Of a stretch of DNA of 64,000 nt, positions 373 through 61,938 are shown piece by piece (the stretch's first letter is position 1; each line of letters begins with the position of its first letter). This DNA is from Patescibacteria group bacterium (GTDB taxonomy: Bacteria; Patescibacteriota; JABMPQ01; JAQVVF01). The notes below the pieces were generated by a model. The model was not told the DNA's origin, searched no databases, and was given only the letters and a program-made list of their open reading frames with translations. The stretch covers positions 165,234 to 229,233 of the forward strand of contig JBAZSC010000002.1 of assembly GCA_041662665.1 (NCBI GenBank), in the 5' to 3' direction. A program made the translations under genes and the position numbers.

Positions 373-567
373 AATGCCTAAATCTATTGCCAAATTGCTA
401 ATCCTATGCTAAAATCAAAGAACTAGAATAATTTTAAATAAAACAAACAGTGTTCAACAATTTAGCAATTGAACAATTAAAAATTTTGGAATACAAAATT
501 TTTAAGCAATTCAACATATTTAACCAATCTAACTAGTCTAACCAGTTTAACTCATTAATCAATACGT

Positions 568-5022: not shown

Positions 5023-5067
5023 CCACAGATTTGCACAGATACTGAACAGATTTAACACAGATACTAA
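5023..5067. repeat. CACAGAT tandem array (reverse orientation of the ATCTGTG family)
   Basis: The sequence is ccacagatttgcacagatactgaacagatttaacacagatact. Confidence 0.7.
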
Positions 5068-5091
5068 AACAAATTAAACAAAAATAAAATT

Positions 5092-5520: not shown

Positions 5521-5532
5521 ATCAGTAGTAAA

Positions 5533-5582
5533 GTATCTGTGTCTCTGTGAACATCTGTCTCGTATCTGTGTAAGATCTGTGG
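5533..5582. repeat. ATCTGTG tandem array (period about 10-11 bp)
   Basis: The sequence is gtatctgtgtctctgtgaacatctgtctcgtatctgtgtaagatctgtgg. Confidence 0.7.
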
Positions 5583-5607
5583 TAAACTAATATCTAACAA
5601 TAAAAAT

Positions 5608-6785: not shown

Positions 6786-6818
6786 CAAAAACGAGACCAT
6801 TTCAGCCTCGTTTTTTTA
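6786..6818 (+). terminator. Rho-independent terminator downstream of trpS/small ORF
   Basis: A hairpin AAAAACGAG-N11-CTCGTTTTT is followed by a T-run. Confidence 0.5.
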
Positions 6819-6821
6819 TTT

Positions 6822-6870
6822 ATCTGTGTCTCTGTGCTTTATCTGTAAAGTATCTGTATAAAATCTGTGG
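6822..6870. repeat. ATCTGTG tandem array
   Basis: The sequence is atctgtgtctctgtgctttatctgtaaagtatctgtataaaatctgtgg. Confidence 0.7.
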
Positions 6871-6871
6871 C

Positions 6872-11183: not shown

Positions 11184-11230
11184 TATCTGTGTTATCTGTC
11201 ATAATCTGTAATTAATCTGTGTTAAATTTG
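11184..11230. repeat. ATCTGTG tandem array immediately upstream of ychF
   Basis: The sequence is atctgtgttatctgtcataatctgtaattaatctgtgttaaatttgtag. Confidence 0.7.
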
Positions 11231-11236
11231 TAGCTT

Positions 11237-12295: not shown

Positions 12296-12300
12296 AACAG

Positions 12301-12420
12301 AAGAATCTTGAATTTAGAATCTAGAATCTTAAATAGAATATGGAATAAAGAATTTAGAATTCTCTATTCTCTATTCTAAATTCATTCTAAATTCAAGATT
12401 CCAGATTCTAAATTCTTATA
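12301..12420. repeat. AT-rich imperfect palindrome built from AATTTAGAAT/TCTAAATTC units (ychF-efp intergenic region)
   Basis: The left half gaatttagaatctagaatcttaaatagaat is the reverse complement of a right-half segment attctatt...tctaaattc. Confidence 0.6.
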
Positions 12421-12439
12421 AATATTTAATTCAAAATTT

Positions 12440-13016: not shown

Positions 13017-13046
13017 CAAAACCGAGCCTCAACACTCGGTTTTTTA
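13017..13046 (+). terminator. Rho-independent terminator after efp
   Basis: A hairpin AAACCGAG-CCTCAACA-CTCGGTTT is followed by a T-run. Confidence 0.6.
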
Positions 13047-13129
13047 ATATCCGTAATTTCCGAATATCCGAATATCTTAATTTCCGTCAGTACTTTATGG
13101 ACTTTAAAAACTTTATGAACTTTAGAAAC
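13041..13129. repeat. Composite tandem repeats: ATATCCGAAT family followed by AACTTTA(A/T)AA family (downstream of recA)
   Basis: atatccgtaatttccgaatatccgaatatcttaatttccgtc ... actttatggactttaaaaactttatgaactttagaaactt. ATATCCGAAT-family arrays also occur at 20911-20945, 25291-25330 and 44621-44650. Confidence 0.65.
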
Positions 13130-14188
13130 TTAGTCAACTTTCGCTGCTTTAATCAAGTCCCAAATTTTCTTTTCAATCATATTTGCAACTTTTGGATTAT
13201 CTCGCAAAAATTGTTTTGAAGCTTCTCTACCTTGACCCAATTGCGCTTTATCAAAAGTATACCAAGATCCAGACTTGCCCAAAACTTTGTAAACAACTCC
13301 AGTATCCAATAAATCACCAACTCTTGAGATTCCTTCATTATACATAATATCAAATTCTGTCGTCTGAAATGGCGGAGCAACTTTATTTTTAACAATTTTT
13401 ACTTTCACTCTATTTCCAATAATTTTATCATTCATTTTAATTTGAGCTGCTCTTCTTAATTCAATTCTCACTGAAGAATAAAATTTCAATGCTTTTCCAC
13501 CAGTTGTTTCTTCTGGATTGCCAAACATCACACCAATCTTCATTCTTATTTGATTCAAAAATATTACTGTTGTTTTTGAACTAGAAATTGCAGCTGTTAA
13601 TTTTCGAAGAGCTTGCGACATTAATCTTGCATGCAAACCCATATGAGAATCACCCATATCGCCTTCAATTTCTGCGCGCGGAGTCAAAGCTGCTACAGAA
13701 TCGATTACAATTACATCAACTGCGTTTGATCGAACAAGAGTTTCAACAATTTCCAAAGCTTGCTCGCCTGTTTCTGGCTGAGAAATTAGCATATCATTAA
13801 TATTAATGCCAATTTTTTTTGCATAATCAGGATCCAAAGCATGTTCAGCGTCAACAAATGCCGCTAATCCGCCTTTTTTCTGAATATTAGCAATGATATG
13901 TTGTGCCAAAGTCGTCTTGCCAGAACTTTCCATACCAAAGATCTCAATAATTCTTCCTCTTGGCACTCCGCCAATTCCCAAAGCAATATCCAAAGAAATT
14001 GATCCAGTAGTAATTGCATCAATTTGCATTGTCTTTACTTCTCCTAACTTCATTATCGCTCCTTCACCAAAACGATCCTTAATCTGATCAATCGCTGATT
14101 CCACAGCCTTTGCCTTTCCCTCCATCGCACTACTTTTTTTTGCATCTTTCGCCATAAAATTAAATTGTTTAATTACTAAATTGCTCAA
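13130..14188 (-). CDS. recA: Recombinase RecA
   Basis: The Walker A motif [13 protein letters not shown] is present, and RecA L1/L2-loop context is conserved throughout. Confidence 0.95.
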
Positions 14189-14224
14189 TTGTTAAATCGC
14201 TAAATTGTTAAAACAAACGAACAT

Positions 14225-14330
14225 CGCCAACAATTTAACAATTCAACAATTTAACATTTTTTAACTAGTCTAACTTATCTAACTCGTTTTTTACTTTACG
14301 AACTTTAAAAACTTTAAGAACTTTATAACT
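14225..14330. repeat. Composite repeat module: AATTGTTAAAT inverted units, then TAACTAGTCTAAC/TATCTAACTCG, then AACTTTAAAAACTTTAAGAACTTTATAACT (recA upstream region)
   Basis: The same three repeat families occur in combination at 48125-48215. AACTTTA units also occur at 13091-13129 and 32691-32740. TAACTAGTCTAAC units also occur at 521-560 and 44551-44590. Confidence 0.65.
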
Positions 14331-19023: not shown

Positions 19024-19056
19024 TTCTCTTCTCCCTCCTTTGTCCCATCAACTTTG

Positions 19057-19082
19057 TCCACCGAAGCTTTAGCGCAGGTGGA
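19057..19082. repeat. Palindromic element variant TCCACC-GAAGCTTTAGCGCAG-GTGGA (intergenic, in the 5' region of the rSAM gene)
   Basis: Its arms and loop are homologous to those of the rpsF copies. Confidence 0.6.
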
Positions 19083-19162: not shown

Positions 19163-19192
19163 ATAGAGGCACAAAATCTTGTGCCCCTAGAT
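19163..19192 (-). terminator. Intrinsic terminator hairpin, identical copy of the one at 20881..20910
   Basis: On the minus strand, a GGGGCACAA-GATT-TTGTGCC hairpin is followed by CTCTATTTTTT. Confidence 0.6.
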
Positions 19193-20794: not shown

Positions 20795-20880
20795 AATTTT
20801 TTGATTTTATTTTTATATAATAAATTTAGTTAATAATATTATACCACAATCAAAGAAGAAGAAGAAGTTATCCACAAAAA

Positions 20881-20910
20881 AATAGAGGCACAAAATCTTG
20901 TGCCCCTAAT
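20881..20910 (-). terminator. Intrinsic terminator downstream of rpoC
   Basis: This is the same 30-nt hairpin plus T-run as at 19163..19192. Confidence 0.6.
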
Positions 20911-20945
20911 ATCCGTAATTTCCTAATTTCTTGATATCCGAATAT

Positions 20946-25174: not shown

Positions 25175-25330
25175 ATATTTTTACAGTTTAACTAGATTAA
25201 TTTAAAATTATTTCGCTAATCATAACCGCATATACTTTTATTATGTAATATCACAAAGCGAATAATCAATTAATTTCACATAACTCGTCAATATCTAATA
25301 TCCGAATATCCGTAATTTCCGAATATCCGT

Positions 25331-28696: not shown

Positions 28697-28744
28697 ACTA
28701 TAAAAAATTAATATATAATAACAAATACTAATCATTTGCAATTA

Positions 28745-28803
28745 AATCTGTATGCATCTGTGTCTCTGTATCAAATCCGTTATAAATCTGTGTAAAATTT
28801 GTG
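28745..28803. repeat. ATCTGTG tandem array in the rpoB upstream region
   Basis: The sequence is aatctgtatgcatctgtgtctctgtatcaaatccgttataaatctgtgtaaaatttgtg. Confidence 0.7.
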
Positions 28804-29023
28804 CGCTAAAGATAACAAAAAATGACCAAAAATTAACACTTTTGGCTTATTTAAAGTCTTTTATAAATATCACGCCCGAGGCTATTCACCTCTGCTTTGA
28901 ATATCATACTTCAAGTATAAGCGTTTTATTTAAAAAGTCAAGCTATTTTTAATTAAAAACAATATTTAGGCTTATCTAAAACAAAAATAAAGCTATCAAA
29001 TTTTCTTATCCACAACGACTTCT

Positions 29024-31968: not shown

Positions 31969-32649
31969 TTATTTTTTTGGTTTTGTAATATGCGGTTCTC
32001 TTAAATAATACGGCATAACAACTTCATTTTGTTCTTTATTATTTAATTTTTCTTCTCCAATTTTTAACAAATTTTCCAGAATATCTTGATCAAAATCATC
32101 TTTAATCTTTATATCTAGAACTTTATTTTTCAATTTTTCTCTAATTATTTTTTCTTTTTCTGAATTTATTTGTCCAATAAAATAAGTTGGCAAAGTTATT
32201 TTTTCACACAACTGCTCAACAGTGCAAACGTATCTTTCTGTTTTCTGTTTCCTGTTTCCTGTTAACAATAGTTCTACATAAATCAAATCACTAATATTTT
32301 CTAAAATTGTAACAACATTATTCAAAACTCCATCGTTCTGACGTTCTAACGCTCCGACGTTCTGACGCTCCATTACTTCAAATCTATCCACACCCACAAC
32401 CTTGCAATTAAAACCAAAAGCCAAAGCATTCGCAGTAGCAACACCAACGCGCAATCCAGTATAAGATCCAGGCCCAATCACTACAATAATTCCGTCAATT
32501 TTATTATTTCCAACTATTTTTTTAATAATTGGCAATAATTCTTCAGATTGCCGAAAATTTGCTTCCCAAATTTTCTTCCTTATAATCTTATTTTGGTCAG
32601 CCAATCCGACAAAAGAAATATAAGTAGCTGTATTTATTAATAATATCAT
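31969..32649 (-). CDS. tsaB: tRNA threonylcarbamoyladenosine biosynthesis protein TsaB (YeaZ-like) with in-frame repeat insertions
   Basis: The N-terminus LLINTATYISFVGL...IIVVIGPGSYTGLRVGVATANALAFG fits TsaB. Internal repeats tctgttttctgtttcctgtttcctgtt and cgttctgacgttctaacgctccgacgttctgacgctcc encode VMERQNVGALERQNDGV. Confidence 0.75.
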   Translation of the reverse strand: MILLINTATYISFVGLADQNKIIRKKIWEANFRQSEELLPIIKKIVGNNKIDGIIVVIGPGSYTGLRVGVATANALAFGFNCKVVGVDRFEVMERQNVGALERQNDGVLNNVVTILENISDLIYVELLLTGNRKQKTERYVCTVEQLCEKITLPTYFIGQINSEKEKIIREKLKNKVLDIKIKDDFDQDILENLLKIGEEKLNNKEQNEVVMPYYLREPHITKPKK

Positions 32650-32737
32650 TTTAAAAAAATAAATTTTATGCTATATTTTCTATATCTAAGTTCAATTTTA
32701 TGAACTTTAAAAACTTTATAACTTTATAACTAATAAC

Positions 32738-33194: not shown

Positions 33195-33340
33195 CTCAAA
33201 ACTCTAAATCCTAAATTCTAAATCCTAAACAAACTCAAAACCCAAATATCCAAATTCCAAAAACTCCGAAGTGCACTTTTGAATTTTATATTTTAGTTAT
33301 TTAAATTTGTTTAGAATTTAGAATTTAGTGCTTAGAATTT
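33195..33340. repeat. AT-rich imperfect palindrome of CTAAATCCTAAATTC / GAATTTAGAATTTAG units between convergent genes
   Basis: ctaaatcctaaattctaaatcctaaac ... gtttagaatttagaatttagtgcttagaatttt. Confidence 0.6.
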
Positions 33341-34731
33341 TAACGACTTAGGATTTTTTCCAATTCTTCTCTCACAACTACCCTGTCATCCCACGCAATT
33401 CCTTTTCCACTTCCAACTGGTCCAGTCATTATCATTTGCTCGCAACCTTTTCCAGTTATCAAAACCACATCGCCCTTCTGGGCTTTTTTTATTGCCAAAG
33501 CAATGGCATCTCGTCGATTCAAAATTTTAAATAAATTCTCATTCAATCGTTTTGGTTTAGCATTCGAAAAAGTATTTGATTTATTCGAAAAAGAATTTGA
33601 GTGATTCAACACGCCTGCCACAACATCATCGATAATGGTCTTCGGGTCATCATCATAAGGATCTTCATTCGTCACAATCACAATGTCAGCATATTTTGCA
33701 GCTAGTGCTCCTAGCTTTGGTCTTCTTGCCACATCACGTCCTCCACCAGTTGATCCTAAAACAGAAATTATCCGTCCCCGAGTACCTAAAAAACTAAGTA
33801 ACTTAGTAACTGCTTGATAAACATTTTCTAAAGCATTTGGCTCAAATGCATAATCAACAATTACTTTAAAATCTTGTCCTTCTTCAATAAACTCCATTTT
33901 GCCTAAATGCAATTTTACTTTTTTCAAAATATTTGCGCAATCTTCAAGTTTCATTTTATATAATGAACAAACCGCAATTGCAGACAACGCATTATAAACA
34001 TTATACTCACCTAACATATTCAAACTAAAATCAATGTCATTATTTATATTCGAAACTTCACATTTTGAATTCATTTGACATTTCGGATTTAAAATTTGAA
34101 ACTTTACTTGCAATCCTTCTGTTTTAATATTAACTGCTCTAAAATTGCAATTTTCATTTTTAATTCCAAATGTTAATTTTTCTCTAACTAAAAAATCCAA
34201 AAATTCAGGCGCATATTTGCTATCTGCATTTGCGACAATTTTATTTTTTACAACTTTGAAAAATTTTAATTTTGCTTTTTTATAATTCTCAAATCCACCA
34301 TGCGCTTCAACATGTTCTGAAAATAAATTTGTAAAAACTCCGCAATCAAAATCAATGCCTTTATGACGATATTGTTCAATTCCTTGCGAAGTTACTTCAA
34401 TAATACAAAATTTACAGCCTTCTTTAACAGCTTCTTTCAAAAATTTTTGTGTTTTAAATCTGCCAAGCATTGTCTGTTTGTACTTGCTGATCCATTCTTT
34501 ATCGCCAATTGCAAAATTTGATGTTGACATCATCGCGCATTTTTTTCCAGATTTTTGTAAAATTTGATAAATTAAATTGCATGTTGTTGTCTTACCAGTT
34601 GTGCCAGTTACTCCAATTACTGTCAATTTTTTTGATGAATGACCATACAAAAAAGCAGCTAAACCAGCCAAAACAAAATGATAAGCTCTCAAAATCGGCT
34701 TTGGAATAATTTTTCTTAAAATATTCATCAT
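33340..34731 (-). CDS. Mur ligase family protein (MurE-like)
   Basis: The motif VIGVTGTTGKTTT is a Mur-ligase P-loop. The C-terminus TNEDPYDDDPKTIIDDV...DRRDAIALAIKKAQKGDVVLITGKGCEQ is MurE-like. An in-frame tandem repeat is inserted (HSNSFSNKSNTFSN). Confidence 0.7.
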   Translation of the reverse strand: MMNILRKIIPKPILRAYHFVLAGLAAFLYGHSSKKLTVIGVTGTTGKTTTCNLIYQILQKSGKKCAMMSTSNFAIGDKEWISKYKQTMLGRFKTQKFLKEAVKEGCKFCIIEVTSQGIEQYRHKGIDFDCGVFTNLFSEHVEAHGGFENYKKAKLKFFKVVKNKIVANADSKYAPEFLDFLVREKLTFGIKNENCNFRAVNIKTEGLQVKFQILNPKCQMNSKCEVSNINNDIDFSLNMLGEYNVYNALSAIAVCSLYKMKLEDCANILKKVKLHLGKMEFIEEGQDFKVIVDYAFEPNALENVYQAVTKLLSFLGTRGRIISVLGSTGGGRDVARRPKLGALAAKYADIVIVTNEDPYDDDPKTIIDDVVAGVLNHSNSFSNKSNTFSNAKPKRLNENLFKILNRRDAIALAIKKAQKGDVVLITGKGCEQMIMTGPVGSGKGIAWDDRVVVREELEKILSR

Positions 34732-36970: not shown

Positions 36971-38125
36971 TTAATTAAACTTCGCCACTACATTATAAAA
37001 AATCTGATAAACAATTCCTCCGCCAAAAATTATATACAAAATATAAATTAAAAATTTCGGCAATCTCAATGAATAAGCTGGCTTTAATTGTCCTATTTTT
37101 TTTGCCTTCAAAAACATTCTCAATATCATAATACCTTGCAAACCGCCAGTCACTGTTCCAACTATTTCAATAACCGCAATAAAACTCCTTGCACCTAAAA
37201 CAAAAATTATTAATGGTATTGTAACTGTAATAACCCACGCCCAAATATTTTTTATTTTATAATCAAATTGAAACATATCTTTCATTGTCATACCAAGACT
37301 AAAAAAAGAAGTTGCCACAGCTAAAATACCTAAGATCGCTCCAGCAACAACAATCTTCCTACCCAAAATTTTGCTAACACCAACAATTGCTTCCTCGCTT
37401 GTTTGATCGCCAGAAATTCCAACAATCACAAAACTAAAAAATAAATAAACTAAAAAAGCAATTATCATTCCAAATATAATCGCAATTTTTAATCTTCTCT
37501 TATTCTTCGCTAATAAATCAACCATGCCCGGAATAGTCGACGCACCTTCATAAGAAAATAGAATAACACCATAAGGCAAAAACAAAGATCCTATTCCTAA
37601 ACCAATAAAATTAGTTAAACTTATTTCACGAACTCCGATAATAATCACAAAACCAACAATTAATAAAAGCAGAAAAACCATTAAATTCTCGAGCTTTTCT
37701 ATTACTCTCATGCCGAATAATAAAGCAATACTCGCTAGAATATAAAAAATGAGCGAGTATAAAAAAGGCGTCCCACCAAAATAAGGCTTAAAAACTATCG
37801 CTAAAAAATTACCGATACCTATAGTATAAGCTAAAGTTGCACCAAAAACTCCAAAAATTAACGAAAATGCTACTGTTCTTTGTCCCCAAATTCCAGCATA
37901 TTTTTTTGCATAACCAGTCATCTGATGATGACCTTTTGTCCTCAAAATAATCTCGCCAAACGCCAAAGTTGTAATTGTTACCATAATTCCCAAAATCAAC
38001 AAATACAAAAAACCAACTCCAAAACCAACTTTGGAAATTACATAAGGAATACCAAACATACCAACACCAATCACAGTGCCAACCAACATCGCTACAGCGC
38101 TAAAAAAATTTGCTTTCAATTTCAT
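36971..38125 (-). CDS. Amino acid permease (APC/aromatic amino acid transporter-like), about 11 TM helices
   Basis: The product is hydrophobic throughout, and its N-terminus FSAVAMLVGTVIGVGMFGIPYV is typical of amino-acid permeases. Confidence 0.65.
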   Translation of the reverse strand: MKLKANFFSAVAMLVGTVIGVGMFGIPYVISKVGFGVGFLYLLILGIMVTITTLAFGEIILRTKGHHQMTGYAKKYAGIWGQRTVAFSLIFGVFGATLAYTIGIGNFLAIVFKPYFGGTPFLYSLIFYILASIALLFGMRVIEKLENLMVFLLLLIVGFVIIIGVREISLTNFIGLGIGSLFLPYGVILFSYEGASTIPGMVDLLAKNKRRLKIAIIFGMIIAFLVYLFFSFVIVGISGDQTSEEAIVGVSKILGRKIVVAGAILGILAVATSFFSLGMTMKDMFQFDYKIKNIWAWVITVTIPLIIFVLGARSFIAVIEIVGTVTGGLQGIMILRMFLKAKKIGQLKPAYSLRLPKFLIYILYIIFGGGIVYQIFYNVVAKFN

Positions 38126-38214
38126 AGATATAATACAAATATACGAATTTATACAAATGATACAAATATGCGAATTCGTATATTCGCAACATTTGCATTA
38201 TTTGTATATTCGTA

Positions 38215-38472
38215 TTATTTTTTCCAGAATTCCCACCATTTCTTTTGTATTTTTTCTTCTTTATCCGCCGAAGCTTTAGCGAAGGCGGACTCTCTCATCT
38301 TTTCTGCAACGTCTTCTTGTTCGTCTGGCCTTAGATTAAATTTGCTTTCTTCGTTCATTTCATTATGTTGCTTATCAATTGTTTTCTCTTGCATCTTGTT
38401 TGCATAACCAGAATCACGCGCATCTTCTCTCTTCTTTTCAACACGATCAAATGGATTTTGTTGGTCTACCAT
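38215..38472 (-). CDS. Small charged hypothetical protein carrying an in-frame palindromic element (SAFAKASADKEEK)
   Basis: The 85-aa ORF contains the 26-nt element at 38264-38289. Its coding status is uncertain. Confidence 0.35.
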   Translation of the reverse strand: MVDQQNPFDRVEKKREDARDSGYANKMQEKTIDKQHNEMNEESKFNLRPDEQEDVAEKMRESAFAKASADKEEKIQKKWWEFWKK

Positions 38473-41307: not shown

Positions 41308-41316
41308 AACTCAAAA

Positions 41317-41394
41317 TATCTGTGTTATTTGTGTAAAATTCTTATTAATTTGTCATCAATCTGTGTAATTTGTGTTCATCTGTAATAAATCTGC
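41317..41394. repeat. ATCTGTG/ATTTGTG tandem array
   Basis: The sequence is atctgtgttatttgtgtaaaattcttattaatttgtcatcaatctgtgtaatttgtgttcatctgtaataaatctgcc. Confidence 0.7.
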
Positions 41395-41396
41395 CG

Positions 41397-43373
41397 TCAT
41401 TTGCGGGAAGCTAAAGTAAACCAGTTTTTCATTTTTGAAAAAAATCTGATATCTGTCGACAATAATTTTTGATTTTTTTTCAAAATAGTTTTGTTCCTTT
41501 TATTCCAAAAATTTATATAACTTTCTTCTTTCGAAAATAATTCCAAATTTTTTGCTTTTATCTTAGATTTTTTTATACTTTTTTTTGTATATGGAAAAGA
41601 AATTTTTACTCTAAACTTTCCAGAACTTTTTTTATACAAATTTGTCCTCAATTTCCAATAATATTTTAATGATTTTTCATTCTCCAAAAAATTAGGCTTT
41701 TTCTTTACTTTTTCAATTTGTATCCAAAATTTTTCTGGAGTTTCAGGCAAATTCAAAAACTTTATTCCAACTCCTGTTTTACTAGAAATATATTTTATAC
41801 CCAAAGAATCGTCATTAAATTTAATATATTTTTTAAAATATTTAATTGCAATTTTTGACAAAGATCCAATGCTCGCTTCAGGTTCGTCAGCTGTATATTT
41901 CCTATCGCCAAAAAGTTTTATCATCCAATCATTATCAGAATCACCAGTTGAAAAGCCAGCTAAAACGAAATCATCATTTTGATTAAAATCGATATCTAAA
42001 TATGCCTCGTCATTGCTTTCATCTTCTACAATTTCTTTCAACAAATTTCCATCACTATCATATTTCCTAACCAATAAATCATTGCCTGTTTCTGCTTTTG
42101 AATTTCCAACAACCATTATTTCATCAGCAATATTAACTTCCATTCCATACAAATAATCGTTTCCTAATTCGCTATCATACAACCTATCCCACAATAAATT
42201 TCCTTCAGAATCTAATTTTCGAAGCAACCAATTATTATCTGTTTCATTATAATATCCGCCTAAATAAATGTTATCATTTGAATCTACATTAACTGCTTTA
42301 AAATAATCAGCAGTTCCTTTTTCATAATTAGAATTCCAATCTTCAACTAAATTATTATCATATTTTATTGTATAAAATTCAAAGCTTGAAGCAGTCGCAC
42401 TGTTTCCAGTTGCAATAATATTATTTCCTGAATCAACCACTAAATCATACAAAATATCATCACCAAGTCCAGAATTATATTCTTGATCAGTTATGACATT
42501 ACCATTTGCGTCATATTTTCTAAGATACCAATTCTTATCAGAATTTATTTTTAATCCTCCAACAATAATATTATCATCAGAATCAGTTATTACCGCATTT
42601 GCTTCGTCGATATTTCCTGAATCATAAATTTTACTCCACAAAATATTGCCATCAGAATCATATTTTCTAAGATACCAATCTTTATCGCCTAATAATTCAT
42701 AATAACCAATAACAATAATGTTATCCGATTTATCAATTGCCAAATCTTTAACCTCGCCATTATCAAAATCAAAAGTATCTGACCAAATTTCCTCTCCATC
42801 GTTATTGTATTTTATTAATCGCCAATCATTGCCATCAGCTTCATTAATATAATTTCCAGCTATAACAAATTCACCAGTTGATAAAAATTTTACGCCTTTC
42901 GCTTGATCATTGCCATTTCCACTATCATAATTTTTAACAAAAAAATTGACTGGCTCTAGTTCCATTGTTTCATTATATGAACTTGCTAAAACAGCTTCTG
43001 AATTTCCAAAATAAAGATAAATTGTCTTATTGCTATTTGCCAAAAGTTCTGACACTTCCACCCAAATAATTGCCGAATTTTCTTCATAATCAAATTCTTT
43101 CAGCCAAAAATCAAGATCTGTTGAATCATCAGCATCAACTAATCTAATATCTGATCCATCACTTTTTATCCTTGCCCAAAAATCAACTTGTTCGTCTGTC
43201 AAAGTTATTTTTACTTGATAATTGCTCAGGTTTTCTGAATTTAAAGAATTTTCCAAAACAATTGGCATTCGATAATCATAATCATTACTATACCAAGCCG
43301 AAGCCGAATTAGAAATAACAAAATAACAAAATAACAAAATAACAAAAATCGCCCCAATTAAAATTCGTTTCAT
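41397..43373 (-). CDS. Secreted SBBP-type beta-propeller repeat protein with a DUF2341-like N-terminal domain and the shared C-terminal module
   Basis: A signal peptide/TM is followed by six or more repeats of the form KDWYLRKYDSDGNILWSKIYDSG...DNIIVGG, which fit the SBBP motif. The C-terminus KYYWKLRTNLYKK... matches the family. Confidence 0.7.
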   Translation of the reverse strand: MKRILIGAIFVILLFCYFVISNSASAWYSNDYDYRMPIVLENSLNSENLSNYQVKITLTDEQVDFWARIKSDGSDIRLVDADDSTDLDFWLKEFDYEENSAIIWVEVSELLANSNKTIYLYFGNSEAVLASSYNETMELEPVNFFVKNYDSGNGNDQAKGVKFLSTGEFVIAGNYINEADGNDWRLIKYNNDGEEIWSDTFDFDNGEVKDLAIDKSDNIIVIGYYELLGDKDWYLRKYDSDGNILWSKIYDSGNIDEANAVITDSDDNIIVGGLKINSDKNWYLRKYDANGNVITDQEYNSGLGDDILYDLVVDSGNNIIATGNSATASSFEFYTIKYDNNLVEDWNSNYEKGTADYFKAVNVDSNDNIYLGGYYNETDNNWLLRKLDSEGNLLWDRLYDSELGNDYLYGMEVNIADEIMVVGNSKAETGNDLLVRKYDSDGNLLKEIVEDESNDEAYLDIDFNQNDDFVLAGFSTGDSDNDWMIKLFGDRKYTADEPEASIGSLSKIAIKYFKKYIKFNDDSLGIKYISSKTGVGIKFLNLPETPEKFWIQIEKVKKKPNFLENEKSLKYYWKLRTNLYKKSSGKFRVKISFPYTKKSIKKSKIKAKNLELFSKEESYINFWNKRNKTILKKNQKLLSTDIRFFSKMKNWFTLASRK

Positions 43374-43400: not shown

Positions 43401-43440
43401 TAATTTTATTAGTCTTACCAATTTTATAGTTAATAAATCT
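43401..43440. repeat. ATTTTACCAATTTTACT-family tandem repeat
   Basis: Related arrays lie at 44585-44620 and 49281-49320 (both intergenic) and in frame in queH at 44990-45060. Confidence 0.55.
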
Positions 43441-44528: not shown

Positions 44529-44632
44529 AAATATTTATTAATTAATTTAACTAATCTAACTGGTCAAACAAATTTAACTCGTCAATTTTACTAATTTTAC
44601 CAATTTTACTAAATAATCAATATCCGAATATC

Positions 44633-45220
44633 TTAATATCTCGAATATTCACATCCGCAGTAACGCTGTCTATAAATTCCATTTAATTTACACAACTCAA
44701 TACTTCTTTTATATAATCCGCTAAAATCTTGTTCCAAAAATTTCACTCCATATTTCTTTTCTAATTCAAGACCGATTCTATTTATCATCATTGTATTCTT
44801 GTATGGCGAAATAGACAAGGTCGTTCCAAACATTTCAAAGCCATTCAACATCGCAAATTCTGCTGTTTTTTCTAATCTGAATTTAATGCAAGCCTCGCAT
44901 CTTTTTCCGCCTTCCTTTTCTTTTTCTAAACCAACAACTTTTTTTTGCCAATTCTTAACATCATTTTTCGGAACAGCGAATTTTAGTTTATCAATTTTAG
45001 CATTATCAATTTTACTTATTTTACTAATTTTACTAACATTATTAATTTTACCAATTTTACTCGCAAGTTTATTCAAATTCTCTAATCTTAAATCATATTC
45101 GCTTTTTGGATAAATATTTGGATTATAAAAATAGCCAGTAATTTCATAATCTGGTTTTATTTTTTCTAAAACTGCACTCGCACATGGGCCGCAGCAAATA
45201 TGTAATAATAATCTTGTCAT
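44633..45220 (-). CDS. queH: Epoxyqueuosine reductase QueH (DUF208)
   Basis: The motifs LLLHICCGPCAS...YFYNPNIYPKSEY and the C-terminal CGCEYS are present. An in-frame tandem repeat encodes NNVSKISKISKIDNAKIDKL. Confidence 0.8.
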   Translation of the reverse strand: MTRLLLHICCGPCASAVLEKIKPDYEITGYFYNPNIYPKSEYDLRLENLNKLASKIGKINNVSKISKISKIDNAKIDKLKFAVPKNDVKNWQKKVVGLEKEKEGGKRCEACIKFRLEKTAEFAMLNGFEMFGTTLSISPYKNTMMINRIGLELEKKYGVKFLEQDFSGLYKRSIELCKLNGIYRQRYCGCEYSRY

Positions 45221-47713: not shown

Positions 47714-47802
47714 GTAATTTTTATTTTAAATTATTTGTAAATATAACTAAGTATAACAATTATTACACTTTTGACCAAGTGTATAACAAAAAACAATATC
47801 TT

Positions 47803-47849
47803 ATCTGTGTATCTGTGTAAATCCGTCTTAAATCTGTGTTAAATCTGTC
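47803..47849. repeat. ATCTGTG tandem array upstream of lon
   Basis: The sequence is atctgtgtatctgtgtaaatccgtcttaaatctgtgttaaatctgtc. Confidence 0.7.
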
Positions 47850-48124
47850 GCCTTCATCTCTTCCCATCCATTCTTTTCTTCACTAAAAATATAAGCTTTA
47901 ACATAATTAATCATTTCTGATTCCGAATCAGCATCATCAACATTAACATTTTTAAAGCCAGATTTTTTTTGTTTTTCTACCCATTCCAATCTCATCTTGC
48001 CTTGAGGATTTTCAAATTCAATCCATTCCATTTTTTCTCCATAACCTTCATCAATTCCTTTATCAGAAACTTCAAATTTTTTTTCAACATTTTCCAAAAT
48101 CAAATCCCATTTTTCTTTAGTCAT
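47828..48124 (-). CDS. Hypothetical small protein
   Basis: The 98-aa ORF has no recognisable motifs. A composite repeat module lies in its upstream region. Confidence 0.4.
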   Translation of the reverse strand: MTKEKWDLILENVEKKFEVSDKGIDEGYGEKMEWIEFENPQGKMRLEWVEKQKKSGFKNVNVDDADSESEMINYVKAYIFSEEKNGWEEMKATDLTQI

Positions 48125-48215
48125 ATATAAACATTTAACAATTAACTATTAACATTTAACTTTACAAACTTTAAGAACTTTATAACTAGTCTAATTTGTC
48201 TAACCTATCTAACTC
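48125..48215. repeat. Composite repeat module (ATTTAACAATT, AACTTTAAGAACTTTATAACT, AGTCTAATTTGTCTAACCTATCTAACTCG)
   Basis: This is a paralogous arrangement to 14225-14330. Confidence 0.65.
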
Positions 48216-49302
48216 GTATTTTTCCCGCTAAATTATAAAACCAATACCAAGCTTTTTTATACACTAGATCCCAAGCTCCCACATAATTTTTTTCAAATCC
48301 ACCAAACCCACGTTTAAATCTCGAAATTCCTTCCCATTCCTCAACTTTTGCTGTTGGCATAACTAATTTATTTGCAGGTGCTATTCCCCAAAAATCATAG
48401 TATTTACAACCTCTTGCTTTTGCTTCTTTAATCGCTTCCCATTGCAAAACATTAGGCGCCATGTATTTTCGATATTCATAATCTGATGCTCCATGCATGT
48501 ATACCGCAGTATCGCCCCAAAAAGAAACAATAATTCCAGCCACAACTTTTCCATTCAATTCTGCCAAAAATAAATTAATAAAATCTTTCTTGCCAAAATA
48601 TTCTAATTGCTTAATATAATAATCTTTTGGATGCAAAGCAAATTTATCTCTTGCAGCTGTCTTTTCCAAAATCTTCCAAAATTCTTCAAACTTAGTATCT
48701 TTAATTCCATCAACACTAGAATATCTATTTACTTTGATATCTTTTTTTTGCGCCAATCTAATATTGTATCTCGCCTTACTATGCATTGACGACATCAATT
48801 CATCTTCATTTTTACTTAAATCCAAAATCCAAGTATCTTTTGGCTGAACTTCTTTTTTTGCTTTTTTAAATCCTAAATCACTCAAAAATTTTACATTCAC
48901 TTCATCCATTTGCCAGTCAGGATCAATCCTTAAAAACATCGATTTTTCCTGTTTAGCAATTCGTCCAATCTCGTCCAAAAGGTTTGTAATTTGAGTTTTG
49001 TAATTTGTAATTTGTTTGGAATTTGGGATTTGGAATTTAGGATTTCCAATAATTGGTCCGCGACCACAATATAAATAATGCAAATTTTTCGTTAAATCCA
49101 TTTTTACAATTAAGCTACTTCCAATTAATTCATTATTTTCTTCCAATCCAATCCGCCAAATTTTTCTGCCTACCATTTTCTGAAATTCTCCCCAATCAAA
49201 ACTCTGCAACATTGATCCATTATTTTGCTTTAAAAAAATATTTAATTTTTCATGATCTTTTATTTCAACAACTTGCATTATCAATTTTATTAATTTTACC
49301 AA
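48205..49302 (-). CDS. FemAB-family peptidoglycan interpeptide-bridge aminoacyltransferase-like protein with an in-frame repeat insertion
   Basis: The overall FemX/FemA pattern is present (LQSFDWGEFQ...FLRIDP...MHSKARYNIR...YMAPNVLQWEAIKEAKARGCKYYDFWGI). The repeat caaattacaaattacaaa... encodes IGNPKFQIPNSKQITNYKTQITNL. Confidence 0.7.
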   Translation of the reverse strand: MVKLIKLIMQVVEIKDHEKLNIFLKQNNGSMLQSFDWGEFQKMVGRKIWRIGLEENNELIGSSLIVKMDLTKNLHYLYCGRGPIIGNPKFQIPNSKQITNYKTQITNLLDEIGRIAKQEKSMFLRIDPDWQMDEVNVKFLSDLGFKKAKKEVQPKDTWILDLSKNEDELMSSMHSKARYNIRLAQKKDIKVNRYSSVDGIKDTKFEEFWKILEKTAARDKFALHPKDYYIKQLEYFGKKDFINLFLAELNGKVVAGIIVSFWGDTAVYMHGASDYEYRKYMAPNVLQWEAIKEAKARGCKYYDFWGIAPANKLVMPTAKVEEWEGISRFKRGFGGFEKNYVGAWDLVYKKAWYWFYNLAGKIRVR

Positions 49303-49321
49303 TTTTACAAACGTTAGGTTT

Positions 49322-53266: not shown

Positions 53267-53280
53267 TTAAGATACAAAAA

Positions 53281-53308
53281 CAAGGCGTTAATTTCAGCCT
53301 TGTTTTTT
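53281..53308 (+). terminator. Rho-independent terminator after rpsT
   Basis: A hairpin CAAGGC-N10-GCCTTG is followed by TTTTTT. Confidence 0.6.
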
Positions 53309-53360
53309 AATTTTTGTAATTTGGAATTTGTAATTTGTTTGGGATTTGGAATTTGTAATT
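53301..53360. repeat. GTAATTTG/GGAATTTG tandem array (intergenic); the same family is inserted in frame in the femAB-like gene at 48961-49040
   Basis: The sequence is tttgtaatttggaatttgtaatttgtttgggatttggaatttgtaattt. Confidence 0.65.
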
Positions 53361-53363
53361 TTT

Positions 53364-59762: not shown

Positions 59763-59830
59763 GATGTCGGATGTCGGAAGTCGGAAGTCGGAACGTTCCG
59801 AAGTTCTGACGCTCCGACGTTCCGACGCTC
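59763..59830. repeat. GC-rich GTCGGAA / CGTTC(C/T)GACG repeat with dyad symmetry; the same family is in frame in tsaB (32330-32372)
   Basis: The sequence is gtcggatgtcggaagtcggaagtcggaacgttccgaagttctgacgctccgacgttccgacgctcc. Confidence 0.65.
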
Positions 59831-59911
59831 CAAAACAAAAGACCACCGGCATCGGTGGCTAGTTTATTTCAAAATATAGAAACTAAACATCACACCGCTG
59901 CCTGTGGCTAA
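59826..59911 (-). promoter_or_regulatory. Conserved leader element copy 2: TTAGCCACAGGCAGCGGTGTG, spacer, hairpin CCACCGATGCCGGTGG and T-run
   Basis: See 55121..55214. This copy lies about 170 nt upstream of ORF 59437..59667. Confidence 0.35.
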
Positions 59912-61510: not shown

Positions 61511-61858
61511 TTATTTCTTTTCTTTATATTGATTAATTGTCCAAAAAGGACTAGTTGGAATAATTGCTTCAAAATCACCTTCAACATAATACCACTTTTT
61601 CTTTTCAATCAAAATCATATCGCCAGATTTGAATTTGAATATTTTATTATCCAAAAAAAATTTTCCTTTTCCTTTTAAAATATAATACATTTCATCAACC
61701 TTTTCATTCATCGCTAAACCAAACTTTGGATATCTTTTTTTTATTTTCACAACACATAAACTCAAATTCCTATTTCCACCATATTCATAAATTACACAAT
61801 TTGGCTTTTTAATTTTTTCTGCCTTATTTTTAGAAACCAACATATTAGCGATTTGCAT
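61511..61858 (-). CDS. Cupin-domain protein
   Basis: The 115-aa product fits a small beta-barrel pattern (YEYGGNRNLSLCVV...YYILKGKGKF...GDMILI). Confidence 0.5.
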   Translation of the reverse strand: MQIANMLVSKNKAEKIKKPNCVIYEYGGNRNLSLCVVKIKKRYPKFGLAMNEKVDEMYYILKGKGKFFLDNKIFKFKSGDMILIEKKKWYYVEGDFEAIIPTSPFWTINQYKEKK

Positions 61859-61938
61859 ATTCGTATCATTTGCATTATTTGTATATTCGTATTATATTTC
61901 ACAAAGTTTTCAAAACTTAACGTGAAATATCAATTAGT

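What the first reader, a model, noticed from the sequence alone, without database searches (positions are those of the whole stretch)
14225..14330. Modular intergenic repeat composites with helical (about 10-11 bp) periodicity recur at multiple loci
At least a dozen distinct short-unit families form tandem arrays of 3-6 units in intergenic DNA. They include AACTTTAAAA, ATATCCGAAT, AATTGTTAAAT, TAACTAGTCTAAC, AATTTAGAAT, ATTTTACCAATTTTACT and GTAATTTG. The same families are combined in the same order at different loci, for example 14225-14330 and 48125-48215. Others lie at 13041-13129, 32691-32740, 20911-20945, 25291-25330, 44551-44650, 43401-43440, 49281-49320 and 53301-53360. Phased A/T tracts at helical spacing predict strongly curved DNA. 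Placement in promoter and terminator regions suggests UP-element-like or nucleoid-organising functions. Alternatively the arrays are a signature of pervasive replication slippage in this genome.
Basis: seen in the sequence. Interest (0 to 1): 0.6.

Follow-up and report, generated by a model that had tools for sequence, protein, structure and literature searches.

The report
Mosaic short tandem repeats between genes
The gaps between housekeeping genes of this tiny candidate-phyla-radiation bacterium are packed with recurring cassettes of 7-9-base tandem repeats; the feature is real and shared by related genomes, and it resembles the still-unexplained short tandem repeats of cyanobacteria and Beggiatoa, not curved promoter DNA.

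Summary
The repeats are real. TRF arrays cover 21% of intergenic DNA, against 1.7% of coding DNA and 1% of shuffles. At least ten unit families recur at several loci, and whole arrays at different loci are 80-90% identical.

The claimed 10-11 bp helical period is wrong. Periods are 7, 8 and 9 bp, and autocorrelation peaks there, not at 10-11. Only the ACAGAT family is spaced about 11 bp. The two named composites share families but not their order.

The window is a Patescibacteria chromosome. The arrays lie in transcribed spacers:
- between stop codon and terminator hairpin;
- in gaps between cistrons, up to the next ATG;
- in 5' leaders;
- in frame inside queH, femAB, a tsaB-like gene and a signal peptide.

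Inverted pairs of arrays fold into 25-55 bp stems. The rodZ-recA stem is kept in four genomes but is built from three different families.

Relatives carry the same families. They gain or lose single units, or swap whole cassettes. Three independent assemblies of this strain show no copy-number change.

Best reading: mosaic repeat cassettes like cyanobacterial STRR (short tandemly repeated repetitive) sequences or enterobacterial BIMEs (mosaic REP elements). They grow by slippage, are copied between loci, and are partly used as RNA stem-loops. The function of the direct arrays is unknown.

The parts
14161..14212 (-). TAAATTGN array (8 bp, 6.5 copies). It forms the 3' arm of the rodZ-recA stem-loop and ends 5 nt before the recA ATG at 14155.
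   Evidence: TRF; RNA fold of 14156-14265(-): -29.9 kcal/mol, z -4.9
14229..14260 (-). AACAATTT array (8 bp, 4 copies). It forms the 5' arm of the same stem-loop.
14262..14285 (-). TCTAACTNN array (9 bp, 3 units; reads GTTAGA on the sense strand).
   Evidence: 87% identical over 31 nt to 48192-48222 (D13)
14293..14328 (-). ACTTTAARA array (9 bp, 3.7 copies; reads AAAGTT on the sense strand). It directly abuts the rodZ-like stop codon.
   Evidence: 89% identical over 37 nt to 13091-13127 (D9)
48127..48222 (-). Composite of AACAATT (48130-48160), ACTTTA (48158-48184) and TCTAAC (48185-48222). The TCTAAC module encodes the last codons (RVR) and the stop codon of femAB.
13044..13129 (-). recA 3' UTR: AAAGTT array (13092-13129) followed by CGGATATT array (13044-13085). 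It runs straight into the terminator hairpin at 13018-13043.
   Evidence: the AAAGTT array is kept in L002 and L003
20883..20945 (-). rpoC 3' UTR: CGGATATT-family array (20909-20945) abutting the terminator hairpin at 20883-20908.
25290..25330 (-). CGGATATT array (4 units) starting 1 nt after the rpoB stop codon. The same array is kept in L002 and L003.
32697..32731 (.). ACTTTA-family array in a spacer between divergent genes.
44538..44650 (-). queH-translin spacer, read on the sense strand: CGGATATT (overlaps the queH stop codon), then GTAAAATT x3, then GTTAGA-like units up to the translin ATG.
45000..45061 (-). GTAAAATTN array (9 bp, about 7 units) in frame inside queH. It encodes a 21-aa insert that is absent from the orthologues.
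   Evidence: 88% identical over 42 nt to the intergenic array at 49275-49316 (D5)
48983..49045 (-). CAAATTC/CAAATTA heptamer array in frame inside femAB, encoding KFQIPNSKQITNYKTQITN.
   Evidence: 77% identical over 62 nt to 53300-53361 (D7)
49278..49310 (-). GTAAAATT-family array filling the ruvA-femAB gap up to the femAB ATG.
53303..53363 (-). TTTGTAATTTGGAA array (7/14 bp) between the holA stop codon and the terminator at 53272-53303.
12302..12416 (+). Inverted pair of AGAATTT / AATTCTA arrays (7 bp, about 9 copies each) between ychF and efp. They form a long stem-loop.
   Evidence: TRF; fold -38.3 kcal/mol, z -5.7
33198..33341 (.). Inverted pair of CTAAATC / TTTAGAA arrays between convergent genes.
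   Evidence: I1; fold -54.3 kcal/mol, z -10.2
38118..38215 (-). Inverted pair of ATACAAAT / ATTCGTAT arrays forming a stem-loop between cistrons.
   Evidence: fold -34.7 kcal/mol, z -7.1
59766..59832 (+). Inverted pair of GTCGGAA / ACGTTCCG arrays forming a stem-loop.
   Evidence: fold -42.6 kcal/mol, z -5.8
32334..32372 (-). CGTTCTGA array (8 bp, 4.2 copies) inside a tsaB-like coding sequence. It is 90% identical over 39 nt to the hairpin arm at 59794-59832.
   Evidence: (D3)
5023..5080 (+). CACAGAT array, the only ATCTGT-family array in the reverse orientation on the + strand. It lies upstream of the PDDEXK_3 gene.
5535..5590 (+). ATCTGT array downstream of the PDDEXK_3 gene, inverted relative to 5023-5080.
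6835..6871 (-). ATCTGT-family array between the pgm stop codon and the terminator at 6787-6815.
11185..11233 (+). ATCTGT array (5 units, period about 10-11) in the ychF leader, downstream of a TTGCAA-17-TAAAAT promoter match. It is kept in L003.
28740..28812 (-). ATCTGT-family array (6 units) directly upstream of the rpoB start codon.
41308..41396 (-). ATCTGT/ATTTGT array filling a gap between cistrons.
47795..47852 (-). ATCTGT-family array at the 3' end of a 98-aa ORF, upstream of lon.
456..553 (+). AACAATT (456-478) and TCTAAC (519-553) arrays in the secG leader. Their orientation on the + strand matches the other loci, so they are antisense to the plus-strand genes here.
61851..61892 (-). 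ATTCGTAT/ATTTGCAT array, the same family as 38174-38215.
43313..43347 (-). Perfect AAATAACA array (x4.4) encoding the hydrophobic core of the signal peptide of the DUF2341 protein. L080 and L081 have degenerate versions.

Best explanation
These are dispersed families of short-unit tandem-repeat cassettes. They are of the STRR (short tandemly repeated repetitive sequence) or long-SSR (simple sequence repeat) kind, arranged as mosaics much like enterobacterial BIMEs (mosaic REP elements). They occupy the transcribed spacers of a reduced Patescibacteria genome.

Anatomy (shown). Each cassette has 3-6 units. A unit is a conserved 5-6 nt core plus a variable 2-5 nt linker. Periods are 7-9 bp, or about 11 bp for ACAGAT.

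How they change (shown by comparing genomes).
- They grow and shrink by whole units.
- They can arise at a new site, including in frame inside genes.
- Whole cassettes are swapped between orthologous spacers.
- Arrays at different loci share the same order of unit variants. Cassettes are therefore copied between loci and do not each arise independently.

Where they lie (shown). They lie between stop codon and terminator hairpin, in gaps between cistrons up to the next ATG, and in leaders. They are therefore almost certainly part of mRNAs.

How they work (inferred).
- Two arrays of one family in inverted orientation make a long RNA or DNA stem. This stem would act as a stem-loop between cistrons or at the 3' end: a terminator, a processing site or an mRNA stabiliser.
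- That the structure is selected, not the sequence, is inferred from the rodZ-recA stem. It persists in four genomes while its building family changes.
- Solitary direct arrays are mostly dispensable filler at any one locus. Whether they also act as landing sites for a protein is open.
For: Enrichment and periods.

Families and copying of whole arrays:
- 77-90% identity over 31-62 nt between unlinked loci, including pairs of a coding-sequence copy and an intergenic copy (D3, D5, D7, D9, D11, D13).
- Shared unit order and shared left edge (CGAGTTA...; TAGTTATAAAGTT...).
- Sharing of repeated 7-mers exceeds the null.

Position:
- At 7 minus-strand genes the order is stop codon, then array, then canonical terminator. 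Four of these arrays are called by TRF; three are irregular repeats read by eye.
- Arrays fill rpoB-rpoC in L002 and L003 up to the ATG with no terminator.

Stems:
- Five inverted pairs in the window have z from -4.9 to -10.2.
- The orthologous rodZ-recA stems have z -6.6 (L002), -7.2 (L003) and -2.3 (L005), and are built from three different families.

Unit gain and loss, and new arrays:
- recA 3' has 1 unit against 5; an 8-nt indel separates L002 and L003.
- queH has a 21-aa insert of 7 units that is absent from orthologues.
- femAB carries heptamer inserts of different lengths at one site in four genomes.

Turnover: a 13-nt spacer in L080 corresponds to 80 nt with three arrays in the window; other orthologous spacers hold different families.

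Constraint: arrays that are retained are 82-94% identical, whereas four-fold degenerate (synonymous) codon sites are 61-66% identical.

Stability within the strain: L001, L078 and L079 are identical across arrays.

Spread across the lineage: 9-23% of intergenic DNA in five related genomes, against 0.1-1.8% in shuffles.
Against: - There are no expression or 3'-end data. Transcription of the arrays and any role of the stems are inferred from position only.
- The stems lack a clean U-tract in the window and in L003. The rodZ-recA stem is absent in the more distant L083.
- Direct arrays are neither unusually unstructured nor unusually structured as RNA (mean z -0.44). No physical property explains them.
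- A conserved core with a variable linker, and identity above four-fold degenerate sites, would also fit arrays of protein-binding sites.
- 24 of 25 arrays in six families have one orientation on the + strand. This bias is unexplained and cannot be assigned to transcription or replication here.
- AT-rich 7-9-mers with one G/C occupy a small sequence space. Part of the family sharing may be convergence from common seeds, for example the conserved GAATATTCG (EYS) codons at the end of queH.
- No copying mechanism has been identified.
Confidence: 0.55

Rival explanations
1. The arrays are sets of binding sites for sequence-specific multimeric proteins acting on RNA or DNA. Each family would be the target of one protein that reads the 5-6 nt core at a fixed spacing. 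For example, an OmpR/PhoB-type regulator could read ACAGAT-N5 direct repeats, or an S1, Csp or ring-type RNA binder could read the 8-9 nt families. Together they would form a regulatory code in UTRs.
For: - Cores are nearly invariant while linkers vary in sequence and length.
- Typical arrays hold 3-5 units.
- The ACAGAT family is spaced mostly 11 bp apart (17 of 31 intervals), like the direct-repeat boxes of winged-helix regulators (the comparison is from my own knowledge).
- Retained arrays are more conserved than four-fold degenerate sites.
- There is a strong orientation bias.
- MacGregor 2015 (PMC4679880) proposed the same for TAACTGA repeats.
Against: - At least ten families would need as many specific binders in a genome of roughly 0.6-0.7 Mb.
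- Arrays are dispensable at each locus and are swapped between families among close relatives.
- The same families occur in frame inside enzymes and a signal peptide.
- Arrays occur in both orientations relative to transcription (456-553, 5023, 11185, 52916).
- The flanking genes are unrelated housekeeping genes.
- The core information is inflated because the units were anchored on the core.
Confidence: 0.2
2. The arrays are pure local replication slippage with no copying between loci and no function. Each array would be born where it lies in an AT-rich, repair-poor genome. Family resemblance would be convergence within a small AT-rich sequence space.
For: - Related species differ by whole units.
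- The queH array sits next to native AAAATT-rich codons that could have seeded it.
- The CGGATATT array after queH starts in the conserved EYS codons GAATATTCG.
- Long SSRs of 5-11 nt are attributed to slippage in the literature (Mrazek 2007, as cited in PMC4679880).
Against: - Unlinked arrays share 80-90% identity over 31-42 nt, including the order of unit variants and non-repeat edges (D3, D5, D9, D11, D13).
- Sharing exceeds the composition-matched null.
- GC-containing units such as AATATCCG recur at 4 loci.
- Inverted pairs of one family recur at the same spacer in different genomes with different families.
- There is no copy-number variation among three assemblies of the strain.
Confidence: 0.12
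3. One reading: A/T tracts phased at the helical repeat make intrinsically curved DNA. This DNA acts as an UP-element or organises the nucleoid.
For: - The spacers are AT-rich and some arrays lie near promoters (456-553, 11185-11233, 28740-28812).
- One family (ACAGAT) has a period of about 10-11 bp.
Against: - There is no 10-11 bp peak in base or AA/TT autocorrelation.
- 27 of 38 arrays have period 7-9, at which unit bends largely cancel.
- Most arrays lie downstream of stop codons and upstream of terminators, and some lie inside coding sequences.
Confidence: 0.04
4. The cassettes are miniature mobile elements (MITE- or REP-like) moved by a transposase encoded elsewhere in the genome.
For: - Cassettes are dispersed in both orientations.
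- Presence or absence differs between close relatives.
- Insertions occur in coding sequences.
Against: - No terminal inverted repeats, target-site duplications or constant element ends were seen.
- Cassettes are only 25-60 nt long and combine freely.
- None of about 47 ORFs in the window is a transposase or RAYT (REP-associated tyrosine transposase).
- Arrays change by single units.
Confidence: 0.05

Closest known systems
STRR (short tandemly repeated repetitive) sequences of heterocystous cyanobacteria (Mazel et al. 1990; Vioque 1997, listed in PMC4046671). The details given here are from my own knowledge.
   Same: - Several families of short tandem units per genome.
- Dispersed at many non-coding loci.
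- Can sit inside functional genes: STRR in the RNase P RNA gene; here queH, femAB and a tsaB-like gene.
- Function unknown.
   Different: - STRR units are strict heptamers with other sequences (CCCCAGT and others), in large cyanobacterial genomes.
- Here units are 7, 8 and 9 nt (one family about 11), AT-rich and degenerate.
- They are joined into mosaics, in a genome of about 0.6-0.7 Mb.
TAACTGA heptamer direct repeats of marine Beggiatoaceae, some Cyanobacteria and Bacteroidetes (MacGregor 2015, PMC4679880)
   Same: - 2-6 copies per set, mostly intergenic, some inside ORFs.
- Often directly upstream of start codons that lack a Shine-Dalgarno (SD) motif. Here 5 of 47 genes have an SD-like motif.
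- Not linked to any functional class of genes.
- No mechanism known.
   Different: - There it is one dominant heptamer in one preferred orientation upstream of starts.
- Here there are ten or more families, mostly downstream of stop codons, and often paired as inverted arrays.
GGGNATC / GGGGAYT heptamer repeats of Xanthomonas and Nostoc (Rehm et al. 2015, PMC4692102)
   Same: - Enriched in non-coding DNA between co-directional genes, within about 50 bp of stop or start codons.
- About four units preferred.
- Transcribed.
- Length and sequence vary between close species at the same spacers.
   Different: - Those are G-rich and form G-quadruplexes.
- The present units are AT-rich and cannot.
REP/BIME mosaic elements of enterobacteria (from my own knowledge)
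   Same: - Modular mosaics of a few motif families.
- Located after stop codons and between cistrons, and transcribed.
- Inverted copies form stem-loops that stabilise the upstream mRNA.
- Fast turnover between relatives.
   Different: - BIMEs are built from roughly 35-nt imperfect palindromes (REP) and are linked to RAYT transposases.
- Here the building blocks are tandem arrays of 7-9 nt units, and no RAYT was seen in the window.
Rickettsia palindromic elements (RPE) (from my own knowledge)
   Same: - A repeat family otherwise found in non-coding DNA is inserted in frame into conserved protein genes of a reduced genome.
- It adds a peptide segment that the protein tolerates.
   Different: - RPEs are 100-150 nt palindromic elements, not short-unit tandem arrays.

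Membership tests
Long simple-sequence repeats / STRR-like short tandem repeats | Head-to-tail copies of a 5-11 nt unit, more frequent and longer than chance | tested here: met
   20.8% of intergenic DNA against 1.0% in shuffles; periods 7-9
Long simple-sequence repeats / STRR-like short tandem repeats | Several unit families, each dispersed at many loci of one genome | tested here: met
   Ten or more families at 2-7 loci each in 64 kb
Long simple-sequence repeats / STRR-like short tandem repeats | The specific STRR heptamers (CCCCAGT, TTGGTCA, CAACAGT) and a cyanobacterial host | tested here: not met
   The units are different and AT-rich; the host is Patescibacteria
Intrinsically curved DNA / UP-element | A-tracts or repeat units in phase with the helix (10-11 bp) | tested here: not met
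   No autocorrelation peak at 10-11; 27 of 38 arrays have period 7-9; geometry
Intrinsically curved DNA / UP-element | Position just upstream of the -35 element of promoters | tested here: not met
   Arrays lie between stop codon and terminator, between cistrons, in leaders and inside coding sequences
Phase-variable contingency repeats | Perfect repeats whose copy number differs between cells or strains | tested here: not met
   Units are 70-90% alike. Three assemblies of the strain from different samples are identical over about 16 kb. Read-level heterogeneity was not testable.
REP/BIME | Imperfect palindromic REP units of about 35 nt in alternating orientation | tested here: not met
   The units are 7-9 nt direct repeats; palindromy arises only from paired arrays
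REP/BIME | Extragenic and transcribed, in 3' or intercistronic positions, forming stem-loops | tested here: inconclusive
   Position and predicted stems fit. Transcription was not measured.
REP/BIME | Associated RAYT (REP-associated tyrosine) transposase | tested here: inconclusive
   None among about 47 ORFs of the window. The rest of the genome was not examined.
Intrinsic (Rho-independent) terminator, for the inverted array pairs | A stable stem-loop followed directly by a U-tract at a gene end | tested here: inconclusive
   The stems are very stable. A U-run follows directly in L002 and L005 but not in the window or L003. Several pairs lie between cistrons with no room for a new promoter.
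OmpR/PhoB-type direct-repeat operator, for the ACAGAT family only | Direct repeats of 6-7 bp at about 11 bp spacing upstream of a regulated promoter | tested here: inconclusive
   Spacing is mostly 11 bp. The arrays lie in leaders, 3' UTRs and gaps between cistrons of unrelated genes. No regulator was identified.
MITE | Terminal inverted repeats and target-site duplication with constant ends | tested here: not met
   None seen in the presence/absence comparisons

The most novel reading that the evidence does not exclude
A reduced candidate-phyla-radiation (CPR) genome runs an active copy-and-paste or templated-insertion process. This process writes family-specific short-unit cassettes into transcribed spacers and even into ORFs. 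The cell uses the cassettes as interchangeable parts of a modular UTR system. Inverted pairs serve as terminators or processing stems. Direct arrays serve as multivalent landing sites for a few RNA- or ssDNA-binding proteins, replacing classical regulators and Shine-Dalgarno-based initiation.
Probability: 0.12. Interest if true: 0.75.

Novelty: new variant of a known kind. Interest (0 to 1): 0.45.

Why it matters
Short-unit (7-9 nt) dispersed repeats are known from cyanobacteria, Beggiatoaceae and Xanthomonas, but no function or spreading mechanism has been established. I found no description of them in Patescibacteria in the library searched.

This case has features that make the questions tractable:
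- The genome is tiny and gene-dense, so every spacer can be assigned to a 3' UTR, a gap between cistrons or a leader.
- Orthologous spacers can be compared across close relatives.
- Those comparisons show conservation of structure with replacement of sequence (the rodZ-recA stem).
- They also show recent in-frame birth of an array (queH).

If the stems are terminators or processing sites, annotation of operons in CPR genomes should take them into account. If the direct arrays bind proteins, they could reveal how these regulator-poor, largely SD-less organisms control mRNAs. If they are only slippage-and-copy debris, they are a marker of the repair and recombination regime of CPR genomes. They are also a source of low-complexity inserts in CPR proteins.

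Tried and rejected
1. Helical phasing or curvature: rejected by autocorrelation and geometry.
2. Direct arrays as deliberately unstructured RNA spacers: 17 arrays have mean z -0.44 against shuffles, no trend.
3. Backup in-frame stop codons in the AAAGTT array after recA: the TAA triplets are out of frame (read).
4. Known RNA families: Rfam finds only tRNA-Leu.
5. Transposase or RAYT in the window: none found.
6. Strain-level copy-number variation: L001, L078 and L079 are identical to the window across the arrays.
7. Genome-wide scan for three AATATCCG units: 72 hits. Most are unrelated simple repeats in many phyla, including coding repeats. It was useful only for a few CPR loci and for showing similar degenerate arrays in Bacteroidota.
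9. Orientation relative to transcription or replication: 24 of 25 arrays share one orientation. The window is a single replichore with nearly all genes on one strand. The six arrays next to plus-strand genes split 4:2. Undecided.
10. Literature searches for such repeats in Patescibacteria, Parcubacteria or CPR found nothing relevant.
Full report
WHAT THE WINDOW IS

The window is a 31% GC piece of a bacterial chromosome carrying housekeeping genes. They include secG, RNase J, a Tyr/Trp-tRNA synthetase, pgm, S18, ssb, S6, ychF, efp, recA, a rodZ-like gene, ftsK, rpoC, rpoB, lon, femAB, ruvA, uvrB, S20, holA and polA. RecA is identical to a protein annotated as coming from a Patescibacteria MAG, on a 258-kb NCBI contig. 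GC skew is negative throughout, so the window lies on one replichore. Nearly all genes are on the minus strand. About 10% of the window is intergenic.

CHECK OF THE OBSERVATION

The arrays are real and far beyond chance.
- TRF arrays of period 5-30 with at least 2.5 copies cover 20.8% of 6,601 intergenic bases. The figure is 1.66% for coding DNA and 1.0 +/- 0.6% for dinucleotide-preserving shuffles of the same spacers.
43401-43440 is only a degenerate remnant.

The stated period is wrong.
- 27 of 38 intergenic arrays have period 7, 8 or 9. Four have 10-11, and three have 14, which is 2 x 7.
- Base autocorrelation of intergenic DNA peaks at lags 7, 8 and 9 (z 5.5, 7.3, 6.5). It is flat at 10 (z 0.8) and 11 (z 2.5).
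- AA/TT autocorrelation peaks at 9 and at 13-14.
- At periods of 7, 8 and 9 bp, four equal unit bends sum to 25%, 5% and 56% of the in-plane maximum. At 10-11 bp they sum to 94%.

FAMILIES

Read on the sense strand of the minus-strand genes, the main families are:
- CGGATATT (8-9 nt): 13044, 20909, 25290, 44619.
- TAAAGTT (8-9 nt): 13092, 14293, 32697, 48158.
- GTTAGA (9 nt): 519, 14262, 44538, 48185.
- AATTGTT (8 nt): 456, 14161/14229, 48130, 52916.
- GTAAAATT (9 nt): 10972, 44585, 45000, 49278.
- ACAGAT (mostly 11 nt): 5023, 5535, 6835, 11185, 28740, 41308, 47795.
- CAAATTC/CAAATTA (7 nt): 48983, 53303.
- AGAATTT (7 nt): 12302-12416, 33198-33341.
- ATTCGTAT/ATACAAAT (8-9 nt): 38118-38215, 61851.
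- GTCGGAA/CGTTCCGA (7-8 nt): 59766-59832, 32334.

Each unit is a nearly invariant 5-6 nt core plus a variable linker. The core information there is inflated, because the units were anchored on the core.

Whole arrays at unlinked loci are 77-90% identical over 31-62 nt (D3, D5, D7, D9, D11, D13). They share the order of unit variants and their edges, for example CGAGTTA at the start of the GTTAGA arrays and AAAGTA at the end of the AAAGTT arrays. Ten exact tandem 7-mers, from five families, are shared by two or more spacers, against 1.8 +/- 1.2 under a composition-matched null. The cassettes are therefore copied between loci, or held to a common form. They are not only born in place.

WHERE THEY LIE

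At seven minus-strand genes the order is stop codon, then array or arrays, then a canonical GC-rich terminator hairpin, with no gap:
- pgm, 6871-6787;
- recA, 13129-13018;
- the propeller gene, 19237-19164;
- rpoC, 20945-20883;
- the 683-aa gene, 34845-34780;
- lon, 45349-45274;
- holA, 53363-53272.
Four of these arrays are called by TRF. Three are irregular CTCTAAT/TCGAAT repeats read by eye.

About fourteen further arrays fill gaps between co-directional genes up to the next ATG, with no canonical terminator. Four lie in leaders downstream of promoter matches (secG, ychF, rpoB and the divergent 32650-32737 spacer).

Arrays can supply the end of a gene. The last codons and stop codon of femAB lie in a GTTAGA unit. 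The rodZ stop lies in TAGTTATAAAGTT. The queH stop lies in a CGGATATT unit that starts in the conserved EYS codons GAATATTCG.

Only 5 of 47 start codons have a Shine-Dalgarno (SD)-like motif. Rfam finds nothing but tRNA-Leu.

INVERTED PAIRS

Where two arrays of one family face each other, they fold into long stems:
- 14156-14265(-): -29.9 kcal/mol, z -4.9.
- 12296-12425(+): -38.3 kcal/mol, z -5.7.
- 33196-33343(-): -54.3 kcal/mol, z -10.2.
- 38118-38220(-): -34.7 kcal/mol, z -7.1.
- 59755-59835(+): -42.6 kcal/mol, z -5.8.

The rodZ-recA spacer is the most telling case. Relatives with RecA 95%, 92% and 87% identical also have a stem of paired arrays there (L002 z -6.6, L003 z -7.2, L005 z -2.3). 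The units differ: AATTGTT in the window, CAAATTC/TTTGGAA in L002 and L005, and TTTGCGAATA in L003. Structure is kept while sequence is replaced. A more distant relative, L083, has no stem there.

Solitary direct arrays are neither more nor less structured than shuffles (17 arrays, mean z -0.44).

COMPARISON WITH RELATIVES

Arrays cover a large share of intergenic DNA in related genomes. Shuffles give 0.1-1.8% and coding DNA gives 0-2%.

| Locus | Intergenic DNA in arrays |
|---|---|
| L002 | 23% |
| L003 | 14% |
| L083 | 13% |
| L082 | 11.5% |
| L081 | 10% |
| L080 | 9% |
| L005 | 9% |
| L084 (42% GC) | 4.5% |

Some arrays are orthologous and well kept.
- AAAGTT x4 after recA is present in the window, L002 and L003.
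- CGGATATT x4 after rpoB is present in the same three.
- The ATCTGT leader of ychF is present in the window and L003.
- The whole 150-nt rpoB-rpoC spacer of L002 and L003 consists of four array modules. It is 93% identical with one 8-nt unit indel.
- These identities (82-94%) exceed those at four-fold degenerate (synonymous) codon sites of the flanking genes (61-66%). Alignment of low-complexity repeats inflates them, and paralogous arrays within the window are nearly as similar.

Other orthologous spacers differ completely.
- femAB to the next gene is 13 nt in L080, 80 nt with three arrays in the window, and a paired AATTGTT stem in L081.
- The queH-translin, nudix-DUF2341, lon 3' and rpoC 3' spacers hold different families, plain hairpins or nothing.
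- After recA, L002 has one CGGAAATTA unit where the window has five.

ARRAYS INSIDE GENES

- queH of the window has a 21-aa insert, ASKIGKINNVSKISKISKIDN. It consists of seven 9-nt GTAAAATTN units and is absent from the L080 and L081 orthologues, which are 74-76% identical. It is 88% identical over 42 nt to the intergenic array at 49275-49316.
- femAB carries CAAATTC heptamers, encoding KFQIPN..., at one site in the window, L080, L081 and L082. L082 is only 50% identical in protein. The inserts differ in length, and more distant homologues lack the segment.
- L081 femAB also holds GATATTCG x4.8.
- A tsaB-like gene holds a CGTTCTGA array that is 90% identical to the hairpin arm at 59794.
- The signal peptide of the DUF2341 protein is encoded by a perfect (TGTTATTT)4.

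Arrays therefore arise without regard to coding. They survive where the frame and the protein tolerate them.

STABILITY WITHIN THE STRAIN

Three contigs from other samples match the window.
- JGI 3300014208 (3.2 kb) has two SNPs and no indel.
- Logan SRR18595301 (10.0 kb) is 100% identical.
- ENA ERZ27249449 (2.8 kb) is 100% identical.
No array differs in copy number. This argues against contingency-type hypermutation. Consensus assemblies would hide minority variants.

INTERPRETATION

Shown:
- Dispersed families of short-unit arrays.
- Strong enrichment in spacers.
- Periods of 7-9 bp.
- Position between stop codon and terminator, between cistrons, in leaders and in frame in genes.
- Stable predicted stems for inverted pairs.
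- Spread across the lineage.
- Whole-unit gain and loss, wholesale replacement, and recent birth of arrays.

Inferred:
- The arrays are transcribed.
- The stems act as terminators, processing sites or stabilisers.
- Cassettes spread by recombination or template switching between loci.

The conserved cores, the preference for 3-5 units and the one-sided orientation (24 of 25 arrays in six families) leave room for protein binding. The 11-bp ACAGAT family in particular resembles operator arrays of winged-helix regulators (from my own knowledge). Against a code of specific binders stand four points: the number of families in so small a genome, the dispensability of arrays at each locus, the occurrence inside enzymes, and both orientations relative to transcription.

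COMPARISON WITH WHAT IS KNOWN

The nearest described phenomena are:
- cyanobacterial STRR heptamers (own knowledge; Vioque 1997, cited in PMC4046671);
- TAACTGA direct repeats of Beggiatoaceae, Cyanobacteria and Bacteroidetes (PMC4679880);
- GGGNATC repeats of Xanthomonas and Nostoc (PMC4692102);
- the long simple-sequence repeats (SSRs) of Mrazek 2007 (cited in PMC4679880).
In architecture and position the arrays resemble REP/BIME mosaics. Their in-frame insertions resemble Rickettsia palindromic elements (own knowledge).

None of these has an established function. The present case differs in four ways:
- unit lengths of 7-9 nt;
- the number of families;
- the mosaic joining of families and the stems built from paired arrays;
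- the host, a reduced Patescibacteria genome.

Four literature searches found no description of such repeats in CPR bacteria. The library is incomplete.

VERDICT

The curvature and UP-element reading is not supported, and slippage is only part of the story. The finding is a new variant of a known but unexplained kind of bacterial repeat, with moderate interest.

Noticed in passing
window 20872-20880, 59380-59388, 29005-29013; reverse complement at 54846-54854: The perfect DnaA-box 9-mer TTATCCACA sits directly after terminator T-runs and ahead of the next promoter at several spacers. L002 has a degenerate copy after its recA terminator.
   Followed up: no
window 19164-19189 and 20883-20908: The same 26-nt terminator hairpin, TAGGGGCACAAGATTTTGTGCCTCTA, occurs twice. 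L002 has a similar one after recA. Terminators are themselves a repeat family here.
   Followed up: partly
window 9976-10243 (four copies), 19052-19082, 38259-38289: A GC-rich 26-31 nt palindromic repeat, TCCGCCGAAGCTTTAGCGAAGGCGGA, occurs in seven copies. Four lie inside a long C-terminal extension of the ribosomal protein S6 gene (219 aa). One lies in the leader of a radical-SAM gene and one in an 85-aa ORF.
   Followed up: no
window 24815-25174: A 119-aa SET-domain ORF lies between rpoB and rpoC in this genome only. L002, L003 and L005 have rpoB directly followed by rpoC.
   Followed up: partly
window, all start codons; 43897 and 45220 in particular: Only 5 of 47 genes have an SD-like motif. 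TATAAT boxes lie 7-10 nt before the ATG of the nudix and queH genes, which suggests leaderless or near-leaderless mRNAs.
   Followed up: partly
window 5023-5590; L083 16856-17327; L084 18836-18933: A PDDEXK_3 nuclease gene (5092-5520) is flanked by inverted ATCTGT arrays. The same slot between RNase J and the Tyr/Trp-tRNA synthetase holds a bAvd/23S-rRNA-IVP gene in L083 and nothing in L084, so it is a variable small-gene slot.
   Followed up: partly
window 54741-55370 and 59710-60142: Two long ORF-free stretches (630 and 433 nt) carry several hairpin terminators and have no Rfam match. They may hold small RNAs or small proteins.
   Followed up: no
L017, L047, L051 (Saprospiraceae, Cyclobacteriaceae); L018, L020, L024, L045, L073 (Prevotella): Bacteroidota MAGs hold long degenerate arrays of 7-9 nt units (CCGAATAT, CCGGAATAT, CGTCCGAAT and variants). 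These look like the same kind of feature in another phylum.
   Followed up: no
L001, corresponding to window 12230: The JGI contig of the same strain has AGA changed to TGA in ychF. This truncates the called protein to 331 aa. It is a population variant or a sequencing error.
   Followed up: no
window 19928-20714: 5.6 tandem copies of a 141-nt unit lie inside the 518-aa beta-propeller gene (Reg_prop hits). These are ordinary protein repeats, unrelated to the short-unit arrays.
   Followed up: partly
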